In this document: one piece after another, positions 2,811 through 12,530 of the stretch
How the letters are laid out: every line of letters starts with the position of its first letter
How positions within the stretch are numbered: the first letter of the stretch is position 1
NCBI GenBank assembly: GCA_043228905.1
Contig: JBHGNT010000987.1
Span: 1 to 13,176, forward strand
Length of the DNA: 13,176 nucleotides
Direction of reading: 5' to 3'
Origin: Azolla caroliniana
Lineage: Eukaryota > Plantae > Polypodiophyta
The notes under the pieces: model-generated
Databases searched by the model: none
What the model saw: the letters and a program-made list of their open reading frames with translations, nothing else
What the model was told of the DNA's origin: nothing
Translations under genes and position numbers: made by a program

Positions 2811-3011
2811 CCTCTTTGGTTTAGGTCCCCAATGGTCCCGCTCACATGTTCACACTAGCTCAACATTCAACACTCAACACTAGCTCCATGTTTTCATGGC
2901 AACATCAATGAAGTTGAGTGTTGAGCTAGTGTGAATTTGCAGGCCCCACTTGTGAATATGTGGGTGCCTATGAAAGTTTAGCAAGATAAGCAAGGACCTA
3001 AACTAGAGAAG
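2811..3011. mobile_element. Foldback / MITE-like inverted-repeat element
   Basis: 23-bp arms 2849-2871 and 2913-2935 (1 mismatch). Outer arms 2839-2854/2951-2966 match 13 of 16, and 2811-2828/2994-3011 match 15 of 18. No TSD identified. Confidence 0.5.
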
Positions 3012-3646
3012 ACGCTGTCATCGATGAAGGATTGTAGAATATGTCAATACAAGTTAAAGCATACAATCAAATCTTCCCTTTTCTTCTTGTACGAGTGCAC
3101 TCGTAGGTGCATCCGTTGTATGGAAAATATATGATGTAGTAGGCCCCTTTATGTGCAAATGTCTGTAATAATAATAATGCTTTTGTAATAATAATAGTGT
3201 GTGGGCGATTATTGTGTCTAATCATATTTCTCCAGAATGTATGATTATTTTGTTTTATGTGAATGTGCATGTAGGTACATATGTGAGTGTATACATGTGA
3301 TTGTCTAAATGTGTGCTATGTTTTATGTGCTAGAAGTTTTAGATGCTTCAATGAGTATATGTGTGTAAGTGTATTTGTGAATGTATAAAAATGTAGGTGT
3401 GTGTTTGTTATATTTTCTCTTTAAGTGCGCTCATGCATGCATGTCGTGAATATGTGTAAAAGGGTGTGCGCGTAAATGTGTGAATCTGTTCTAAGATGTG
3501 TATGTGTCAAGGAGATAATTATAAGAAAAGATGAATAGTCAAGTGGTTAAGGCTATATAGGGAAGGATTTGAAATTTATTATAAAGGTGAAATGGCTAAA
3601 TGGTTAAGGTAATTCATTGTGTGGGGCAAGATTCAAACTCGAATGA

Positions 3647-3737
3647 TGGTTGTGCCACAATTAGGTTTAGAAAAACAAGTAGCCACTAAGGTGGTTGAGC
3701 CACAATTAGATTTAGAAAAACAAGTAGCCACTAAGGT
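3647..3737. repeat. 45-bp tandem duplication
   Basis: TGGTTG(T/A)GCCACAATTAG(G/A)TTTAGAAAAACAAGTAGCCACTAAGG at 3647 and 3692, with two mismatches. Confidence 0.95.
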
Positions 3738-3739
3738 TA

Positions 3740-4179
3740 TGCACCTCCTTGTGTTCCTAGTTTTACGATTGTATCTTTCATACCGTCCATTATAATCCCG
3801 GTACCAATCATATCTATCATACCGGTCATAGTTGTCCCTGTACCGGACATCTTGTGCCGGTCGGTATCTCTCTTCTCTCCTCCAACGTTCTTCTTCCTCT
3901 TCCTTGGTACTCCGTGGTTCGATTTGCCAAACCGGTGGTGCTTGGTGATTCAACAAATTGTACTTGCACTGCTCCATTGTGTGGTTCCTGGAATGGCACA
4001 GTAGACATTGCGACCGCATGGTACATTCTAGTGCTGAGTGTCCGGCATTTAGACATGTTGTGCATTGAATGGCCTGTCGAAACCAGAGATCCTCATCGGT
4101 TGGTAACGCTCGTTGGAGTGCTCCCATTGTTAGCCAAGAGCTTGTTTTCTCCATTTCTCTAATCCGGTCGATGACCTGG
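3740..4179 (-). pseudogene. gag: Fragment of a different retroelement Gag with two CCHC zinc knuckles and an R/Y/D-rich tail
   Basis: ORF 3633-4232 contains CTTCLNAGHSALEC and CLLCHSRNHTMEQC (both CX2CX4HX4C), then YRDNYDRYDRYDWYRDY. Confidence 0.7.
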
Positions 4180-4788
4180 TAGAGTAGAAGGGTTGAAGGA
4201 TTTGTACCCCTTTCTCTCAAATGAGAACCCAATGATGATGCATTTCTCTAATTTTTCGATCAAGCTTTTGTTGCTTCTCATCAGGAATGTGCACGAATGC
4301 AATTGAGCCAAATATCATAACGTGAGATAAGTTTGACTTCTTCCCAATAATGGTGGGGGTTAAAGTCATGCACTCCGGATGTTGTGCATCAATTCATTAG
4401 GTAAACAATTGTGCATTCTACTTCGGCTCAATATGATTTTGATATGTGCTCCTCATTCAGCATAACTCTTGCTACCTTGAGGATGTACTGATTCTTCTGT
4501 TCAGCTACACTGTTCTATTGTAGTGTATCTCAACACGTAAATTCTTGACTAATTCCTTCTTGCCAGAGATAAGTTGTGAAATCGTTGGAAAAGTACTCTT
4601 TTCCTCTGTTTGATTGAAGGCGCCGAACATGTCAACTCGTTTCTTTTTCGACTCTGCTTTTAAGATTTAGGAAGTTTGAGAACACTTTAGTGACTATTCT
4701 ATTGCATATAAGGGACGATCTAGGTGTGTCTAGTGAAATCGTCGATGAAGGTCACATAATATCGGCATCCTCTGAATGCTACCGTTTG
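4180..4788 (-). pseudogene. pol: Copia integrase core and C-terminal part
   Basis: Hand translation: GCRYYVTFIDDFTRHT*, LQSNRGKEYFSNDF, TLQ*NSVAEQKN, Y*AEV...VYLMN, IFGSIAFVHIPDEKQQKLD, KGYKSFNPST. Confidence 0.9.
4784..4788. repeat. Left 5-bp target site duplication GTTTG of the Gypsy insertion
   Basis: Identical to 10811-10815. Removing the element plus one copy restores the in-frame Copia integrase WGPTQT-VAFRGCRYYVTFIDD. Confidence 0.9.
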
Positions 4789-4819
4789 TGTCATAGACAT
4801 ATGCCACGCCACGATGAAA

Positions 4820-4888
4820 GGTAAGGATTGAACCCAAGACCTCCTCTCCTGGTCTCCATTGGGCAACCCTACCAACTAAACTACATCC
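4820..4888 (-). promoter_or_regulatory. tRNA-like Pol III A-box/B-box module in Gypsy 5' LTR (antisense)
   Basis: Minus strand reads GGATG-TAGTTTAGTTGG-TAGGG...GAGGTCTTG-GGTTCAATCC. A box at 4872-4883, B box at 4825-4834. Confidence 0.6.
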
Positions 4889-4945
4889 ATCTATGCATCT
4901 TTATATAAAATCCAACTTCATGTATGGTAGATTAAATATTGGAAG

Positions 4946-5065
4946 TTCCTAGCTTGCATGCATCCTCATGCATTCTCTATTCCTAGCTTGCATACATCCT
5001 CATGCATTCTCTATTCCTAGCTTGCATGCATCCTCATGCATTCTCTATTTCTAGCTAGCATACAT
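4946..5065 (+). repeat. 34-bp tandem repeat (3 copies plus a partial) in U3 of the Gypsy 5' LTR
   Basis: TTCCTAGCTTGCATGCATCCTCATGCATTCTCTA at 4946, 4980 and 5014, partial at 5048. Only one copy plus a partial in the 3' LTR (10604-10637). Confidence 0.95.
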
Positions 5066-5222
5066 ACCTCTACCTTCTTGTATAAATACTCAAGTGCACC
5101 TTGATTCTAATCCAGGTGAACAACACCAATTACAGAATCATAAGTTAAGTTCTTGTTCTTTCTCTCTCTCCTAGTTCTTAGTCTCGTCTTGGTTCTACTC
5201 TATTATACTCATCTGTATTAGT

Positions 5223-5233
5223 TTGTTCACCTT
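5223..5233 (+). promoter_or_regulatory. Putative self-priming primer binding site TTGTTCACCTT
   Basis: Lies 2 nt after the 5' LTR and has no TGG tRNA-type PBS. Reverse complement AAGGTGAACAA is in the LTR 32 nt after the TATA start (10703-10713 perfect; 5114-5123 matches 10 of 11). Confidence 0.75.
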
Positions 5234-5250
5234 CTCCTCTTCTTGCTACC

Positions 5251-6293
5251 ATGTCCGACTCCATCGACAACCTAAACCAAGTAATGGTAGCCTTGCAACA
5301 ACTTCAACTTGAAAATGAAATCCTTAGGAATCATTATGAGAGCTTCAATCCCGCACATCAAGAAACCCACCACCTGCTGAGCCACAACCGCCGTCGGCAC
5401 CTAGCCCAACAACTTCCTCTTTCCATCCATATGTCCTCGAACCAACCATCAGCCTACCCGACAAAGTCAATGGCATGAGGGGGTATCTTCACGGCTTCAT
5501 CAATCAAATTCAGCTTATCATCTATTTACAATCCCAACAGTATGCTAGTTCGACTTTTCTTGGGTCGACCTCGTCGACTCCCTTCTCTCCGGGCCGGCGC
5601 AAGTGTAGTTTGCACTTCTGGTCGAGACCTCATCCCCTCTCTTAGAAAACTTCATCGCTTTCCTTGATGAGCTCGAAGCTACGTTCCGTGAGACCATCCG
5701 GCAACGAACAACACTCACAAAACTCTATTCCTTCCAACAAGGCTCACGTCCAGCCTTTGTCTACACTTCAAAGTTCCGTCAGATTGCCTACGATGTCAGT
5801 TGGGATGACCAAGACTTATGCAACCATTTTCATCGCGATCTCCGAAAAGATGTCAAGACTCTTCTCTTAAACTTTCCAGAGCCCACATCATTGTCTTAAT
5901 CTCCCAAGCCGTCCAATGTGATAATTATCTGTTCAAACTTCGTCATGAAGAATGTGGGACTCGTGGGTTTCAGCCTTCCTCCCAAAATGCATCAATAGCC
6001 AGGCCTTACATCTCAGTTTCACCCCCCCACGCCAACCTTACCATCACCTAGTGATACTCATACTATGATGGAGGTCGATTCCCATACCCCGATGGAGATC
6101 AATCACGTTCGGTTCCAACCAATAACTAATGCCCAACACCAGCATCATCATGACAATGACCTCTGTCTCTATTGTGGTAACCCCGGCCATGTCATCCTTC
6201 ACTACCCGATGTGGGGCCATCAACACTAATTCGACTGTGCACGTCTTGCGGAGGTTCCTTGACAACAGGAAAAACGACCAAGTCCAACTGTAG
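5251..6293 (+). pseudogene. gag: Gypsy Gag (retrotransposon capsid plus CCHC knuckle), frameshifted
   Basis: Hand translation across frames: MSDSIDNL..., EPTISLPDK, GFINQIQLI, KLYSFQQGSRPAFVYTSKFRQIAYDVSWDD, LRKDVK, PMEINH, and CLYCGNPGHVILHY (6164-6205, last Cys decayed). Confidence 0.85.
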
Positions 6294-6301
6294 TACGAGC
6301 C

Positions 6302-6700
6302 ATGTCATTGAACGCCTCTCATTACCTACCTTCTCCATGCTCCCACAAGTCCGTTCCACCATTAGGAGGGTTTGCTTTGCAAGTACACTCTCATGCTTTG
6401 ATCGACTTCAGACCATCTACGTGTTTTATCAATATATCGTTTGTCCGAGCACATAACATCCCCACCGTCCGCACATCGCAACCCATATCCATTGAGGCGA
6501 TCGACGACCGGGTTCTCTCTTCGAGGGTGATTACAGAACTCACTATCCCATTGGTACTTCAAGTCAGGCCCCACCATAAGGTACTAACGTTCTACCTCAT
6601 TGCAACCCCCCGACATCTGATTGTTTTGGGGCTATCTTGGTTGGAGACACACAATCCAATAGTGGATTGGGGCAACCGCACCATCACTTTTCCAGTGCGG
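6302..6700 (+). pseudogene. pol: Gypsy aspartic protease
   Basis: ORF 6302-6820 has ALIDFRPSTCFI (decayed ALIDSGAS), and IVLGLSWLETHNPIVDW is typical of Ty3/Gypsy proteases. Confidence 0.85.
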
Positions 6701-6884
6701 ACGATTCTGGTTGGGTCACAATACTCTCTTGATTCGATTGCGGCCGATTCCGGTTTGGTCACTACACTGGCTGTTTTGTCATGGGACATCTCTGTTCCTA
6801 TCAAAAAATTTCCCCCATGATAATAGTGACTTTTTGGATATATTTGAGAAGCGAAATGCAAATCGGTTACGGGTCGGTTACCGG

Positions 6885-7654
6885 CACATCACCTCGATGA
6901 TTGCCCAATCGAACTCCAAGTTGGCGAGCATCCACCATTCGGCCCTATTTATGGACTATTTGAACCTGAACTTGAGGCTCTCCGCACATATCTGGCTGAC
7001 AACCTCGCTAAGGGCTTCATTCAACCCTCCAAATCACCGGTCGGGGCCCCAATTTTATTTGTCAAGAAGAAGGACGGTTAATTACGCCTATGTGTGGATT
7101 ATCGGGGTCTCAACAAAGTTACAGTGCGTAATTGTTATTCCTTGCCCTTAATTCCAGCGCTCCTCGATCGACTCCAAACCGGGCGTATCTTCTCCAAAAT
7201 CAACCTGCGGGGAGCCTACAATCTGGTGCGCATCAAGGCTAGGAACAAGTGGAAAACGGCCTTTCAGACACACTATGGGCATTTCGAGTACAAGGTGATG
7301 CCTTTTGGTCTTACCAACGCCCTAACAGTCTTCCAGCACATGATGAACGATATATTTCAAGAGTACCTCGATCAATTCGTGGTAATCTACCTTGACGACA
7401 TCCAAGTTTTTTCTTCCAACTTAGAGAAGCACACACAACACGTATGGTTGGTTCTAACCAAACTTCGGGAATATGGGCTTTACGCCAAAAGTGAGAAATG
7501 TGAATTCAATCGAACCTCTATCGAATTCCTGGGTTACATGATCTCACCCACTGGGATCACAATGGATGAGCGCAAGGTAGTGGCAATCACCGATTGGCCT
7601 CTCCCGACTCGACTGAAAGAGGTAATCATTTCTTGGTTTCGCAAATTTCTATAG
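6885..7654 (+). pseudogene. pol: Gypsy reverse transcriptase
   Basis: [57 protein letters not shown], YLDD (7388-7399), FLGYMIS. In-frame TAA at 7079-7081. Confidence 0.95.
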
Positions 7655-7865
7655 ACGATTTATAAACGGGTTTTCTTCCCTTGTGCAATCTCTCATCCAA
7701 CTTACTCAAAAAGATACTCTATTTCTCTGGACCCCCGTGGCACAAAATGCTTTTGATTCCCTCAAAGCAGCTTTTCTCTCACCCCTTGTGTTGATCCACC
7801 CCGATCCCACGAGACCCTTCCAGGTTGAAACCGACGCCTCCGACTTTGCCATTGGCGCAATTTTG
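7655..7865 (+). pseudogene. pol: Gypsy RT connection and RNase H N-terminal part (interrupted by solo LTR)
   Basis: AFDSLKAAFLSPLVLIHPDPTRPFQVETDASDFAIGAIL, then an abrupt switch to non-coding sequence at 7866. Confidence 0.9.
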
Positions 7866-8561
7866 TGTTGGGAACACGACGTTCCTTATGTCCGACGCTC
7901 GGCCACAACCGAGATTCTTTTCATACACAGAAAAACAGGTAATGAAACGCGACACAAAAGAAAAAGAAGAGGAGAAATGGTACACAGGAGGTATACGTGG
8001 AAAACCCCAAAATAGGGGAAAAACCACGGCAGCCCACGAACTGCAAACTGTCACTATGCCGAAATATACAACAGTAAGATCACTGAGGCAACGACCTCGT
8101 GTTCTCAGATCTTCGCCACAGGCGGCGGTTACAACAGAGGCAACGACCTCATCTCTCTCTCTCTCTTTCTCTTTCTCTATCTCACACTCTGTACAGTTAC
8201 ACGCTCTAATTTCTTCTTGCACCAACAAGAAAGAATAACAACAAGAATGACAACGGTAACTAAAAGTTTTCCCTAAGTCATATTTATACTAATATGACTT
8301 TTCGGCTATTTACAAAAGTAGCCTCGATGGGCTCCATCCGGCTCTCCGCAGTCGGGTACTCCTCATCCGGTTCATACCGGGCCTACACCATCCGACTCTC
8401 CGTAGTCGGGTACTCCTCATCCGGTTCATACCGGGCCTACACCATCCGACTCTCCGAAGTCGGGTTCTCCCCATCCGGTTCATACTGTTTCGGCCTCGGC
8501 CGAGTTTGCTCGTCGGCACTGTTCTTCTCCCTTCCCATCCGGAGGGACCTGTCTTCCAACA
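7866..8561 (-). mobile_element. Solo LTR (696 bp), probably Copia-derived, inserted in the Gypsy RNase H
   Basis: TGTTGG...CCAACA inverted termini. Flanks are TTTTG and TTTTTG (5-bp TSD plus one extra T). Host reading GAIL|SQPNDDG resumes after it. Minus-strand TATAAATA at 8281-8288. No internal coding domains, PBS or PPT. Confidence 0.85.
8334..8485. repeat. 54-bp GC-rich tandem repeat (about 2.8 copies) in solo-LTR U3
   Basis: CCATCCGACTCTCCGTAGTCGGGTACTCCTCATCCGGTTCATACCGGGCCTACA units start at 8334, 8388 and 8442. Confidence 0.95.
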
Positions 8562-8564
8562 TTT

Positions 8565-8890
8565 TTGTCCCAACCAAACGACGATGGCACACTACATTGG
8601 GTCGCTTTCTACTCCCAGAACTTTACAGCCCCGGAAATCAATTATCCAGTCTATGACAAGGAGCTTGCAGTTATCATCTCTACCTTCGTCGAATGGCAAC
8701 CCTATCTCGTTGGGGGCCCGTTACATATCCAGGTGTGGACCGACCACAAGAAACTCATCTACTTCACCACCAGTCATACATTGAATCGAAGGCAAGCTCA
8801 TTGGTCATCTTTTCTCCCTAACTACGACTTCGAAATCTTGTTTTGACCCGACGTTCAACATGGGAAAGCGGATGCCCTCTCTTGGCAATC
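8565..8890 (+). pseudogene. pol: Gypsy RNase H C-terminal part
   Basis: SQPNDDGTLHWVAFYSQNFTAPEINYPVYDKELAVII...WTDHKKL...LNRRQAHW...GKADALS. Confidence 0.92.
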
Positions 8891-8965
8891 ACATTTTGCG
8901 TACGCCTAGGTGACGACGTATATTCTCAGGAATCACATTGTTTATTGTGGCCCGATCAACTATAG

Positions 8966-10200
8966 ATGTTCGCAACCTACATGTTGCATGATGATTCCTT
9001 GCTCAACGAAATCTCTCAAGCCACCATGTCAGACCCATTCGTTACCAACATCCTGGCGCGCATCAATTACCCATTCCAAGGAATGCAAACCTTGGATCTC
9101 AGTCACTTTACAACTCGGGATGGGCTACTTTATCATAATCACCTCGTTTACATACTAGCCGGAGCATGTCATACTCGAGTCCTAACAAATTGCTACGATG
9201 ATCCTCTTGTCGGCCACTTTGGGGTCATGAAAACATTGGAGTTGCTATCTCGGGGGTTTTGGTGGCCCCAACCTAGGAAATTTGTCAAAGAAGTTATCAA
9301 GATGTGTGACGTTTGTGCCCGCTCCAAAGTAGCTCACCATCGTCCATATGGCCTTCTCCACCCGCTTCCACTTCCTAGTCAACCCTAGGCCTCTCTCTTG
9401 ATGGACTTCATAACCAACCTCCCTCACATCAATGGTCATGACACAAAGATGGGCTCACTTTGTCCCATGCTCAAAAACCATTTCGGGGGAGGAGACAACG
9501 GACCTTTTTTTGAAAAATGTCGTTCATCCACATGGCTTATCCGAGGATGTCACTTCTGATCAAGGTCCTCAATTTATCTCCCCTTCTGGCGACAACTTCC
9601 GCAAACATTCTGGACTTCTATGAACTTGTCAACAACGTACCACACTCAAACTGATGGCCAAACCGAAAGTATCAACCAAATCCTCGAACTATACCTTCGG
9701 TGTACAGTCAGCTACCAACAAGAGGATTGGGTGGACTTCCTTGCCATGACAGAATTTTCCTACAATAATAGTATCCATGCCTCAACTAAGGTTTCCCCAC
9801 TCTTTGTAAATTATGGGTTCCACCCTCATTTCAGCATTTCCATTCCTGCGATTTTTGTCAATCAGTCGGCAGAGATGCGTGCCACCACTTTACAAGATGT
9901 CCATCGTGACCTCTCCCTTGAGCTCCATTTCGTTGGCAAACAATATAAGGATCACACTAACCTTCATCGCTTGGCCGTGCCAACCTTCGCAGTCGGTGAC
10001 ATGGTTTGGTTGTTACATCGCCACATCACCACCACCCGTCCTTGTGCGAAGCTAGACTACAAAAAGCTAGGCAACTTCCCTATCATCAAGTGAAACAACC
10101 CAATCACATTCCGGATAGCGCTTCCCCCAACATTCAAGATTCACAATGTTTTCTACGTCTCTCTCCTTGAACTATACCATCCTTCTCAAATTCCGGGACG
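8966..10200 (+). pseudogene. pol: Gypsy integrase (HHCC, core, GPY/F region)
   Basis: YDDPLVGHFGVMKT...CDVCARSK, MDFI, SDQGPQF, STTYHTQTDGQTE, KLDYKKLGNF, IHNVFYVSLL. Contains stops and frameshifts. Confidence 0.92.
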
Positions 10201-10240
10201 ACAACCTCCTCCACCGACACCCGTAGAATTATCAACAAGG

Positions 10241-10405
10241 GAGGAGTACGAGGTTGAGCAAATCCTCGACTCCCGCTTGCATTGACAAAAACTTCAATAC
10301 TTGGTCTTATGGAAAGGTTACCCCATTTCGGATGCCACGTAAGAACTGGTTACACCTTTACAAAAGGCTCCCAAGACCACTCGAGCTTTTTTTCAAGGGT
10401 ACACA
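10241..10405 (+). pseudogene. Chromodomain at the integrase C-terminus
   Basis: EEYEVEQILDSRLH*QKLQYLVLWKGYPISDAT*E matches the canonical YEVE-I...YLV-WKGY...WE chromo motif. Confidence 0.9.
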
Positions 10406-10438
10406 CAGAAGCCAGTCATGGATCTTCGGAGGCAACTT

Positions 10439-10448
10439 AGGGGGAGGA
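10439..10448 (+). promoter_or_regulatory. Polypurine tract
   Basis: AGGGGGAGGA, 3 nt before the 3' LTR TG. Confidence 0.85.
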
Positions 10449-10451
10449 TAA

Positions 10452-10810
10452 TGTCATAGACATATGTCATGCAACAGTGAAAGGTAGGGATTGAACCCAA
10501 GACCTCTTGGTCTCCATTGGGCAACCCTACCAACTAATCTACATCCATCAATGCATCCTTATATAAAATCTAACATCATGTATGGTAGATTAAACATTGG
10601 AAGTTCCTAGCTTGCATGCATTCTCATGCATTCTCTATTTCTAGCTGGCATACATACCTCTACCTTCTTGTATAAATACTCAGGTGCACCTTGATTCTAA
10701 TCAAGGTGAACAACACCAGTTACGGAATCATAAGTTATGTTCTTGTTTTTTCTCTCTCTCCTAGTTCTTAGTTTCGTGTTGGTTCTACTCTATTATATTC
10801 ATTCGTGATA
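10452..10810 (+). repeat. Gypsy 3' LTR (359 bp)
   Basis: TGTCA...GTGATA (decayed TGACA), preceded by the PPT and followed by TSD GTTTG. TATAAATA at 10671-10678. Confidence 0.92.
10483..10546 (-). promoter_or_regulatory. tRNA-like Pol III A-box/B-box module in Gypsy 3' LTR (antisense)
   Basis: Minus strand reads GGATG-TAGATTAGTTGG-TAGGG...GAGGTCTTG-GGTTCAATCC-CTA. A box at 10530-10541, B box at 10488-10497. Confidence 0.6.
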
Positions 10811-10815
10811 GTTTG
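10811..10815. repeat. Right 5-bp target site duplication GTTTG of the Gypsy insertion
   Basis: Matches 4784-4788. Confidence 0.9.
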
Positions 10816-12411
10816 CGTTGGACCCCACACATATGAGTGAATTACGTCCATGAGGCCTTTGCTTACGTTTCTCTCCTTCGAAAATGGATGCCAATGTTGT
10901 TTGCCGATTTGGCAAACTTCACACACTCCAATACTGTCCTTCTCTATCAATTTTGGGAGTCCGATGAAGACTCCTTTCGTCTGGAGGCTTTTGAGCTTTT
11001 GGAGGTTGATGTGTCTGATTCTTTTGTGCCACAATTCTATGTCCATGTCGGCTTTCAGACCTTTTGCAAACATGATAGATTTCAACTTGTATGAGTCAAG
11101 AATGAACATTCGGCCCTCTCTTCGTCCGTGAGCAATGACTCGGCCTTCTTCCTCAATGAAAGAACTTGCGTGGTTGAAACGGATTTGCATGCCTTGTTCC
11201 ATAATTTGCCTGACTGAGACCAAATTCTTCGTTATGGTCAGAACATGCAACACGTTTTTGATATATAGGTTTGGTTGCTAACATGTCGTATCGGGTGAGT
11301 GGTGTCATCTCCAGGCTCAACATAGTCGGGCCGATCCGGGCTCCCTCAAGCCTCAAAACCAGTCTTAATGAGATGTCATATTGTTTAGGGCATCGGAGTC
11401 AACAAATCACACATCTTCTGCATTGGACGTCTCAGTCGGATTGGAGGCCGACATAGAATTTGCGTTATGTCTTATTACGAACATCCCTCCATGATTGTCG
11501 TGGTTAGAGTTATTGGCATGATTGGTGAGTTGTCGGCTTGTGCAGGCCGACTCACGTTTCTTCTTTCAGCACTCTACCTCATGGTGGCCGATTTTGCCAC
11601 AATACCCACATTTGGTGGGATTATTTTGTTAGCGCAATCCAGCATGAAAGCTCCCCCTCCTGCCGAATGTTCCTCGAGTGTTTCCAACATCTTGCCTATA
11701 GTAGAAATTATGTTCATGCAATGATTCTCTATCGTTTCAGCCTTGGCCGAATCGGCCTCTTTTTCCACGATCACGTCCTCTTCCTCCGTCCGAGTGTGAA
11801 TAGGGCATGTGACCTTCTGATGCATTGCTCCTCGTTCGGATGTGATTTTCTTCAACCAATAGCATCGACTGGAGATCAAAGAAGGAGGGAGGATTCTCTC
11901 ATACGAGGACGGCTAATTTTATTGTGCTAAAACGGGGTGCTAGGCCATCGAGGCATATTTACACCATTTCATCGTCGTCAATGTTAACATTGATCGAGTC
12001 GAATGAGTCACACAACTCCTTGAGCTTCAAGGTATAGCTTGTGATTGACATATCCCTCTATTGGATGTTATTCAACTCTTGACGAAGTTGAAGTTTTTGT
12101 GTGGTTGTGTTGGCTACAAAAATCTTCATTAGGTTCACCCATGCTTCCTTCGTCATCTTAGGCTTCCGAATGAAGCCGAGCATGTGGTCGTGGACACATG
12201 ACGCCAAACAGTACAACACTCGACTTGCCGCTTGCTCCCATGTTGGGTAGTCAGCGTGTGTTGGGTTGGGTTTCATTTCTTGTGCTCCCTCAATATAGCA
12301 GCTCCAATAACCTTGACCGACAAGGTGTTGGTGCATCTTGTATTCCCAATAGGCAAAGTTATTTCTATCCAGCTTTTCGCTAGGGAGAGAGTTGCCTATC
12401 TGACTGTTCAT
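10811..12411 (-). pseudogene. gag-pol: Copia polyprotein 5' part: Gag, zinc knuckle, protease, GAG-pre-integrase and start of integrase
   Basis: MNSQIG..KLDRNNFAYWEYKM, KLQLRQELNNIQ, CGYCGKIGHHEVEC (11610-11569), *FVDSDALNNMT (decayed WFVDSGASNHMT, near 11400), NLVSVRQI, LWHKRIRH...CEVCQIGKQH, VIHSYVWGP. Confidence 0.92.
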
Positions 12412-12530
12412 GATGGTCGATTGGTTAAAGTTGTTTTCCTTTTTCTTCTTCTCTGCTTGATGAACCAATTCTTCTTGATCGTCGGTGTATAACACAACAC
12501 GGGTGAATGGGTTGGATCAGAATACCAATC

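What the first reader, a model, noticed from the sequence alone, without database searches (positions are those of the whole stretch)
5081..5233. tRNA-independent self-priming signature (Tf1-like) in a plant-type retrotransposon
Seen: after the 5' LTR there is no TGG tRNA-type PBS. Instead TTGTTCACCTT (5223-5233) is the exact reverse complement of AAGGTGAACAA, which starts 32 nt after the TATAAATA start (perfect at 10703-10713; 10 of 11 at 5113-5123). Established: S. pombe Tf1 primes reverse transcription with the first 11 nt of its own mRNA annealed just downstream of the 5' LTR, and TATA-to-TSS spacing is about 30 nt. Inference: this element self-primes. That is atypical for seed-plant chromoviruses and points to the fungal-related Tcn1-like lineage found in non-seed plants.
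Basis: partly seen in the sequence, partly recalled or inferred. Interest (0 to 1): 0.75.

Follow-up and report, generated by a model that had tools for sequence, protein, structure and literature searches.

The report
Self-priming plant retrotransposon, known kind
This decayed plant jumping gene has no tRNA primer site but carries an 11-base site that pairs with the predicted first bases of its own RNA, so it likely started copying itself with its own RNA end, a trick proven in fission yeast and already predicted in print for this group of non-seed-plant elements.

Summary
The window holds an aged Ty3/gypsy chromovirus (4789-10810, 5-bp target duplication). Two bases after the 5' LTR lies an 11-mer (5223-5233) that is exactly complementary to a stretch starting 32 nt after TATA in the 3' LTR; the 5' LTR matches 10 of 11, and family contigs carry the matching A there. 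Only 2 of 5000 shuffles match as well. Nine different primer/PBS sequence pairs occur among relatives, each matching its own LTR, mostly 31-35 nt after TATA and at a pyrimidine-A start. Tf1-type self-priming is therefore likely (about 0.9), though no RNA start was seen. It is not new: Neumann et al. 2019 predicted self-priming for 83% of 1500 plant Tcn1 elements, a 2026 paper lists Tcn1 in ferns, and this scan has noted the same layout on other DNA. One extra: a U3 arm between TATA and the start site folds over the primer copy in three close families and may mask the 3' copy. That role is untested, and the scan has also noted it before. Host and formal Tcn1 membership were not established here.

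The parts
4784..4788 (+). Left target-site duplication GTTTG
   Evidence: Same 5-mer at 10811-10815
4789..5220 (+). 5' LTR (432 bp; has two more 34-bp tandem units than the 3' LTR)
   Evidence: LTR alignment; family contigs end in TGACA at 5216-5220
5081..5088 (+). TATA box
   Evidence: Sequence; invariant in the close relatives L001 and L002
5094..5105 (+). U3 arm, an inverted copy of the primer region; predicted hairpin with 5110-5121 across the predicted start site
   Evidence: Fold z -2.6 here, -3.9 in the 3' LTR, -7.5 in L002; 12-bp stem in L001
5113..5123 (+). Predicted RNA 5' end and 11-nt self-primer (first base mutated in this copy)
   Evidence: the start is inferred from TATA spacing and the pyrimidine-A rule
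5131..5136 (+). R-side arm of a predicted side stem with 5212-5217 (one of the 'pretzel'-type flanking duplexes)
   Evidence: Fold of 5113-5240; duplexes of -4.7 to -7.8 kcal/mol in window, L002 and L005, with no shuffle control
5223..5233 (+). Primer-binding site complementary to the element's own predicted 5' end, after a 2-nt GT spacer
5251..6290 (+). gag, broken by frameshift and stops (end approximate)
   Evidence: Pfam Retrotrans_gag; tblastn with L002 Gag over 5439-6217 in two frames
6302..10435 (+). pol (protease, RT, RNase H, integrase, chromodomain), broken
   Evidence: Pfam; tblastn with P0007, 66-79% identity in pieces
7866..8561 (.). Solo LTR of another family (TG..CA ends, TTTTG-type flanks) nested in the RNase H domain
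   Evidence: Flanks printed; RNase H split at 7880/8565
10241..10345 (+). Chromodomain with the Y-W-Y aromatic-cage residues (group I type), two in-frame stops; limits approximate
   Evidence: Translation; Chromo PF00385 in intact relatives
10439..10448 (+). Polypurine tract, 3 nt before the 3' LTR
   Evidence: Sequence
10452..10810 (+). 3' LTR (359 bp): TATA 10671-10678, U3 arm 10684-10695, perfect primer copy 10703-10713
10811..10815 (+). Right target-site duplication GTTTG

Best explanation
This is a dead copy of a Ty3/gypsy chromovirus, likely of the Tf1/sushi (Tcn1) group, whose primer-binding site is complementary to its own LTR 32 nt after TATA, so the family likely primed reverse transcription with the first 11 nt of its own RNA. 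Steps: (1) Transcription starts at the A 32 nt after TATA (inferred from spacing and the pyrimidine-A rule, not mapped). (2) Nucleotides 1-11 anneal to the PBS 2 nt past the 5' LTR, stacked on a short R/U5 stem (complementarity shown, fold predicted). (3) RNase H of the element's RT cuts after nucleotide 11 and frees a 3' end (inferred from Tf1). (4) Minus-strand DNA is extended through U5 and R and jumps to the 3' R (general LTR biology). A U3 arm is predicted to fold over the second primer copy at the RNA's 3' end and may keep it from competing for the PBS (speculative).
For: The perfect 11-mer is reached by 2 of 5000 shuffles. The natural 5' leader folds with the primer/PBS duplex: z -3.5, 0 of 200 shuffles, mean pair probability 0.88. 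In family contigs of four runs, A stands at 5113, and none of the 40 rows shown falls in 5114-5128 or 5220-5232; 15 rows were not shown. L001 and L002 keep the same primer at TATA+32 and TATA+31, and the TATA-to-primer block is the only part of the L002 LTR that aligns with this one. Nine primer types each match their own LTR at 9-11 of 11 (mean 9.9) against a non-cognate mean of 6.5; 1 of 200,000 permutations reached the cognate sum. Eight of 9 types begin at pyrimidine-A and 7 of 9 lie 31-35 nt after TATA. In print, 83% of 1500 plant Tcn1 elements are predicted to self-prime (PMC6317226, supplement), and the Tf1 mechanism is summarised in PMC7175516.
Against: No transcription start or cleavage product was observed. 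Eleven of the 24 relatives tabulated were found by an inverted-repeat scan, so the matrix is partly circular. Among the 12 relatives with an LTR pair, 8 show the signature; 4 (one long-branch family) show only an 8-nt match with no TATA nearby. The third pretzel duplex was weak in the window and L002 (-5.9 and -3.4 kcal/mol). The lowest-energy folds of L013 and of the decayed L005 5' copy do not form the full duplex. Novikova 2010 saw no self-priming signal in Selaginella SM-Tcn1. Without the solo LTR the element is about 5.3 kb, just below the published Tcn1 range of 5466-9444 bp.
Confidence: 0.9

Rival explanations
1. The PBS is read by a host tRNA, a half-tRNA or another small RNA, and the match to the LTR is incidental.
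For: Half-tRNA and unidentified PBS types exist in plant elements, and 5% of Tcn1 elements have a tRNA-Met PBS. The host tRNA set could not be examined.
Against: There is no TGG at the LTR edge. The PBS differs among nine types and each tracks its own LTR, which a fixed host RNA would not explain.
Confidence: 0.04
2. The duplex is a structural 5'-UTR stem (translation, packaging or dimer control) and priming happens some other way.
For: The duplex is part of a longer predicted stem with R/U5 pairing. Novikova 2010 left the priming of SM-Tcn1 open.
Against: The 3' arm starts 0-2 nt after the LTR end, exactly the PBS position, and no other PBS is present. Complementarity stops at a pyrimidine-A start in 8 of 9 types.
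Confidence: 0.05
3. The complementarity is a chance inverted repeat in an old, decayed copy.
For: The copy is old (LTR distance 0.083) and its 5' LTR matches only 10 of 11.
Against: Shuffle control 2 of 5000; conservation in family contigs and in L001/L002.
Confidence: 0.01

Closest known systems
Plant Tcn1-clade chromoviruses (REXdb; Neumann et al. 2019, PMC6317226; Novikova et al. 2010, PMC2864245)
   Same: No tRNA PBS and an LTR-complementary tract of 10 nt or more starting 0-5 nt after the 5' LTR (their criterion). 5-bp target duplication, aromatic-cage chromodomain, gag and pol in different frames.
   Different: A different, unnamed family, slightly shorter than their size range. Reported hosts are mosses and club-mosses and ferns (PMC13477047, one passage); this host was not identified here.
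Tf1/Tf2 of Schizosaccharomyces pombe, with Tj1, Tosmo1-3, Tcry1 (Tf1/sushi group)
   Same: 11-nt self-primer at the predicted RNA 5' end pairing with a PBS just past the 5' LTR; a flanking R/U5 stem; a chromodomain integrase.
   Different: The mechanism is proven for Tf1 and only predicted here. Tf1 has a single ORF (recalled; consistent), whereas this clade has a -1 frameshift signal (clear in L002). Only two of the three pretzel duplexes were found. A U3 arm over the start site is not mentioned in the passages I read.
TAR lineage of Ty1/copia (Houba, Osr-1)
   Same: Predicted self-priming in plants (89% of 203 elements).
   Different: A different superfamily, with copia domain order, and it occurs in seed plants.
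Seed-plant chromoviruses Tekay, Reina, CRM, Galadriel
   Same: Ty3/gypsy domain order with a C-terminal chromodomain.
   Different: They mostly use tRNA-Met (48-90%), and in seed plants they lack the aromatic cage.

Membership tests
Tcn1 clade (REXdb chromovirus|Tcn1) | RT/RH/INT cluster with named Tcn1 references | tested here: inconclusive
   No named Tcn1, Tf1, Reina, Tekay or CRM sequence was available. In an RT tree of 93 sequences the window sits in a clade of unnamed metagenome elements (local support 0.97). The only named neighbours are one fungal and several amphibian and fish elements.
Tcn1 clade (REXdb chromovirus|Tcn1) | Chromodomain with aromatic cage (95% of the clade) | tested here: met
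   Y, W and Y are present at the cage positions (positions recalled from HP1-type chromodomains). Not exclusive to Tcn1.
Tcn1 clade (REXdb chromovirus|Tcn1) | No tRNA PBS; LTR-complementary tract of 10 nt or more starting 0-5 nt after the 5' LTR | tested here: met
   11 nt, offset 2
Tcn1 clade (REXdb chromovirus|Tcn1) | 5-bp target-site duplication | tested here: met
   GTTTG on both sides
Tcn1 clade (REXdb chromovirus|Tcn1) | gag and pol in different, overlapping frames | tested here: inconclusive
   This copy is too decayed to fix the frames. The close relative L002 has a GGGAAAC slippery site followed by a 13-bp stem at the end of gag.
Tcn1 clade (REXdb chromovirus|Tcn1) | Non-seed-plant (or fungal) host | not testable with these tools
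   No genome is held, run labels are coded, and homologues of flanking elements carry no organism names.
Tf1-type self-priming | Primer sequence is the true 5' end of the RNA | not testable with these tools
   Indirect only: TATA+32 and a pyrimidine-A start.
Tf1-type self-priming | Primer and PBS change together among relatives | tested here: met
   Nine types, cognate 9-11 of 11 against a non-cognate mean of 6.5; partly circular selection.
Tf1-type self-priming | Three-duplex 'pretzel' leader | tested here: inconclusive
   Central duplex and an R/U5 stem are predicted; the third duplex is weak.
Tf1-type self-priming | RNase H cleavage after the primer and extension from it | not testable with these tools
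   Needs a bench assay.
tRNA-primed chromoviruses (Tekay, Reina, CRM, Galadriel) | PBS beginning with TGG, complementary to a tRNA 3' end | tested here: not met
   The sequence after the LTR begins GTTTG.

The most novel reading that the evidence does not exclude
In this clade, self-priming has a fourth structural element: a U3 arm between TATA and the start site that is a second PBS-like copy. It is in the RNA only at the 3' end (or in transcripts started further upstream), where it would fold over the primer copy. Only the correctly started 5' end could then reach the PBS, giving a built-in check on which RNA end and which transcript can prime.
Probability: 0.3. Interest if true: 0.5.

Novelty: new member of a known kind. 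Interest (0 to 1): 0.2.

Why it matters
As a finding it is ordinary: one more family showing what is already the published hallmark of plant Tcn1 elements. It adds modest comparative support (matched primer/PBS changes, fixed promoter register) to a prediction that, in the papers I read, rests on sequence complementarity alone for plants. The U3 arm would matter more if functional: it would explain how a self-primed element avoids using the identical primer copy at its 3' end, and would tie start-site choice to priming, as nucleosome-controlled start choice does for Tf2 (PMC5341516, passages).

Tried and rejected
No whole genome is held, so intact copies and host tRNAs could not be searched. 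Sequencing-run search: no RNA holder listed; the one run guessed as RNA was relabelled probably DNA, and all runs laid were contigs, which cannot show an RNA start. Viral-contig scans gave 0 loci and 3 distant loci. ARAGORN and Rfam found nothing in the window. The Atlas look-ups returned nothing. Host identity from homologue names failed. A search of the 81 loci for tRNA-Met-type PBS motifs, to use as tRNA-primed controls, gave 4 partial hits, none checked against an LTR end and none used. Two primary Tf1 papers were not held. Considered and rejected: (a) a range extension of Tcn1 to ferns as a novelty, since it is already stated in PMC13477047 and the host is unverified; (b) the paired differences at 5134/5214 as compensatory, since both fit CpG decay; (c) the U3 arm as a general feature of self-priming elements, since it is absent in several distant types; (d) the single double-sided change in the U3 stem as proof, since 134 of 500 shuffles reach it.

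Full report
What is there. The window is a patchwork of decayed retroelements. The element in question runs from 4789 to 10810, with LTRs of 432 and 359 bp and GTTTG on both flanks. The LTRs differ by 20 transitions and 8 transversions over 359 aligned bases (K2P 0.083). Pfam finds gag, protease, RT, RNase H and integrase zinc-finger pieces in gypsy order. An intact relative (P0007) aligns over 6302-10435 at 66-79% identity. The chromodomain keeps the Y-W-Y cage residues despite two stops (cage positions recalled). A 696-bp solo LTR of another family splits the RNase H domain. A purine tract lies at 10439-10448.

The observation. The 11-mer after the 5' LTR is the exact reverse complement of 10703-10713 and matches 10 of 11 at 5113-5123, 32 nt after the TATA start. 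In 5000 dinucleotide shuffles of the 3' LTR, 2 gave a match of 11 or more and 8 gave 10 or more. Contigs of public runs show that this copy's C at 5113 is private: in four runs from 3 studies, 52-73 contigs per run with over 99% of depth read A (one search agrees). They also show that the family's LTR ends in TGACA at 5220, leaving a 2-nt spacer before the PBS. Among the 40 variant rows shown none falls in 5114-5128 or 5220-5232, while the region between varies freely; 15 rows were not shown. The natural leader 5113-5240 folds with the primer/PBS duplex and a short R/U5 stem (z -3.5, 0 of 200 shuffles; mean pair probability 0.88).

Relatives. A scan of metagenome contigs with a pol alignment kept the best 80 of 566 confirmed stretches (78 loci); viral contigs added 3. 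I scanned 55 of these 81 loci, chosen for having sequence upstream of pol, for inverted repeats. I tabulated 24 loci in which a 5' LTR end could be placed: 12 with an LTR pair (ends of L005, L051 and L053 set by hand at the terminal motif), 1 on a permuted contig (L002), and 11 found by the inverted-repeat scan itself. Of the 12 paired loci, 6 have a perfect match of 9-12 nt, 2 have 10 of 11 (one mismatch or one G-U), and 4, all one long-branch family, have only an 8-nt match with no TATA upstream. Collapsed to nine primer types, each PBS matches its own LTR start at 9-11 of 11 (mean 9.9) against a mean of 6.5 for other types (maximum 10, between two related types); 1 of 200,000 permutations reached the cognate sum. 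This is partly circular for the scan-found loci and ignores relatedness. Eight of 9 types begin at an A preceded by a pyrimidine, and 7 of 9 lie 31-35 nt after TATA (one at 40, one with no TATA found). This fits the plant TATA window and YR rule (PMC1832190, passages). The closest relatives L001 and L002 (71% and 68% pol identity to P0007) keep the identical primer, and the TATA-to-primer block is the only part of the L002 LTR that aligns with this one. L001 lacks its 5' end, so its PBS was not seen.

How it likely works. By analogy with Tf1 (PMC7175516, passages; bioRxiv 10.1101/2022.12.06.519325, passages), the RNA starts at the primer's first base, nucleotides 1-11 anneal to the PBS, RNase H cuts after base 11, and RT extends from that end. 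Complementarity, conservation and matched changes are shown. The start site, the fold and the cut are inferred. Matched changes could come from selection or from the PBS being recopied from the primer in each cycle (my inference); either implies priming. Against a perfect fit: the third pretzel duplex is weak in the window and L002, and two relatives do not give the full duplex as lowest-energy fold.

Comparison with what is known. Neumann et al. 2019 (PMC6317226; passages; Additional file 5; Additional files 1 and 3 too large to read) state that most Tcn1 elements lack a tRNA PBS and are predicted to self-prime: 83% of 1500, all with 5-bp duplications and a chromodomain. Their criterion is met here. 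Novikova et al. 2010 (PMC2864245; passages and section 7) found Tcn1 in mosses and Selaginella but not in ferns by PCR, and saw no priming signal in SM-Tcn1. A 2026 paper says ferns contain Tcn1 (PMC13477047, one passage). Other papers were seen as passages only: PMC3350952, PMC4600332, PMC3601003, PMC8282616, PMC13469084, PMC5341516. Formal membership is not proven. Of the best 120 of 3731 RT homologues, 11 carry an organism name, 10 amphibian or fish and 1 fungal, at 49-61% identity, and none is a seed plant; the closest hits (67-81%) are unnamed. The RT tree (93 of 202 extracted sequences, FastTree, rooted on a distant locus) places the window among these unnamed elements, with weak deep nodes and no named Tcn1 reference. 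Earlier AI notes call this genome likely a fern; I could not test that.

An extra feature. Between TATA and the predicted start lies an arm (5094-5105; 10684-10695) complementary to the primer region. The TATA-to-primer segment folds as a hairpin with z -3.9 (3' LTR), -2.6 (5' LTR) and -7.5 (L002), and L001 has a 12-bp version. Over four rows, 91.7% of cells pair against 23-44% for slid controls, with one double-sided change that 134 of 500 shuffles also reach. In family contigs the loop positions 5107-5108 vary while no arm position is among the rows shown. L005, L010, L053 and L079 fold similarly with other sequences (z -2.1 to -3.7), but L013, the L019 type, L033, L038 and L066 do not, and a longest-perfect-match control was clear only for the window's 3' LTR, L002 and L079, 3 of 14 rows. 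Since U3 is in the RNA only at the 3' end, masking of the 3' primer copy is my best guess (about 0.3). I did not find it in the passages read or in the listing of one search (self-primer, Tf1, hairpin, self-primed, sushi; 15 of 22 papers listed), but the primary Tf1 structure papers were not available, so this is weak. The scan has noted such an arm on other DNA; I saw those notes after finding the arm here.

Verdict. A real and well-supported self-priming signature in a new family of a known kind, already predicted in print and already noted by this scan in other genomes. Interest 0.2.

Noticed in passing
window 5094-5121 and 10684-10711; L001 4409-4436; L002 1968-1994: U3 arm that is an inverted copy of the self-primer and is predicted to fold over the start site; conserved in three close families, patchy in distant ones.
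   Followed up: partly
window 7866-8561: Solo LTR of another family, with three 54-bp tandem units at 8334-8495, inserted in the RNase H domain; TG..CA ends and TTTTG-type flanks.
   Followed up: partly
window 4946-5078: 34-bp tandem repeat in U3, with two more units in the 5' LTR than in the 3' LTR, so the two LTRs differ by 68 bp after insertion or by template slippage.
   Followed up: no
window 4784-4788, 5221-5225, 10811-10815: The target duplication GTTTG equals the first five bases after the 5' LTR, which makes LTR alignments overrun by 5 nt; likely a coincidence.
   Followed up: partly
window 10768-12516 (minus strand): The element is inserted into a decayed Ty1/copia element (copia gag and gag-pre-integrase domains).
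   Followed up: partly
window 3636-4247 (minus strand): Fragment of another retroelement gag with two CCHC-like motifs; homologues only in unnamed metagenome proteins.
   Followed up: partly
L002 3131-3185: GGGAAAC slippery site followed by a 13-bp stem at the gag/pol junction, a likely -1 frameshift signal; decayed in the window near 6268-6300.
   Followed up: partly
L055, L060, L063, L078 (just after the 5' LTR end): A long-branch family with no TGG PBS and only an interrupted match to a stretch roughly 85-95 nt upstream of the LTR end, with no TATA at about 32 nt; its priming mode is unclear.
   Followed up: no
window 2849-2935: 23-bp inverted repeat, 96% complementary, 41 nt apart; possibly a small transposon remnant.
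   Followed up: no
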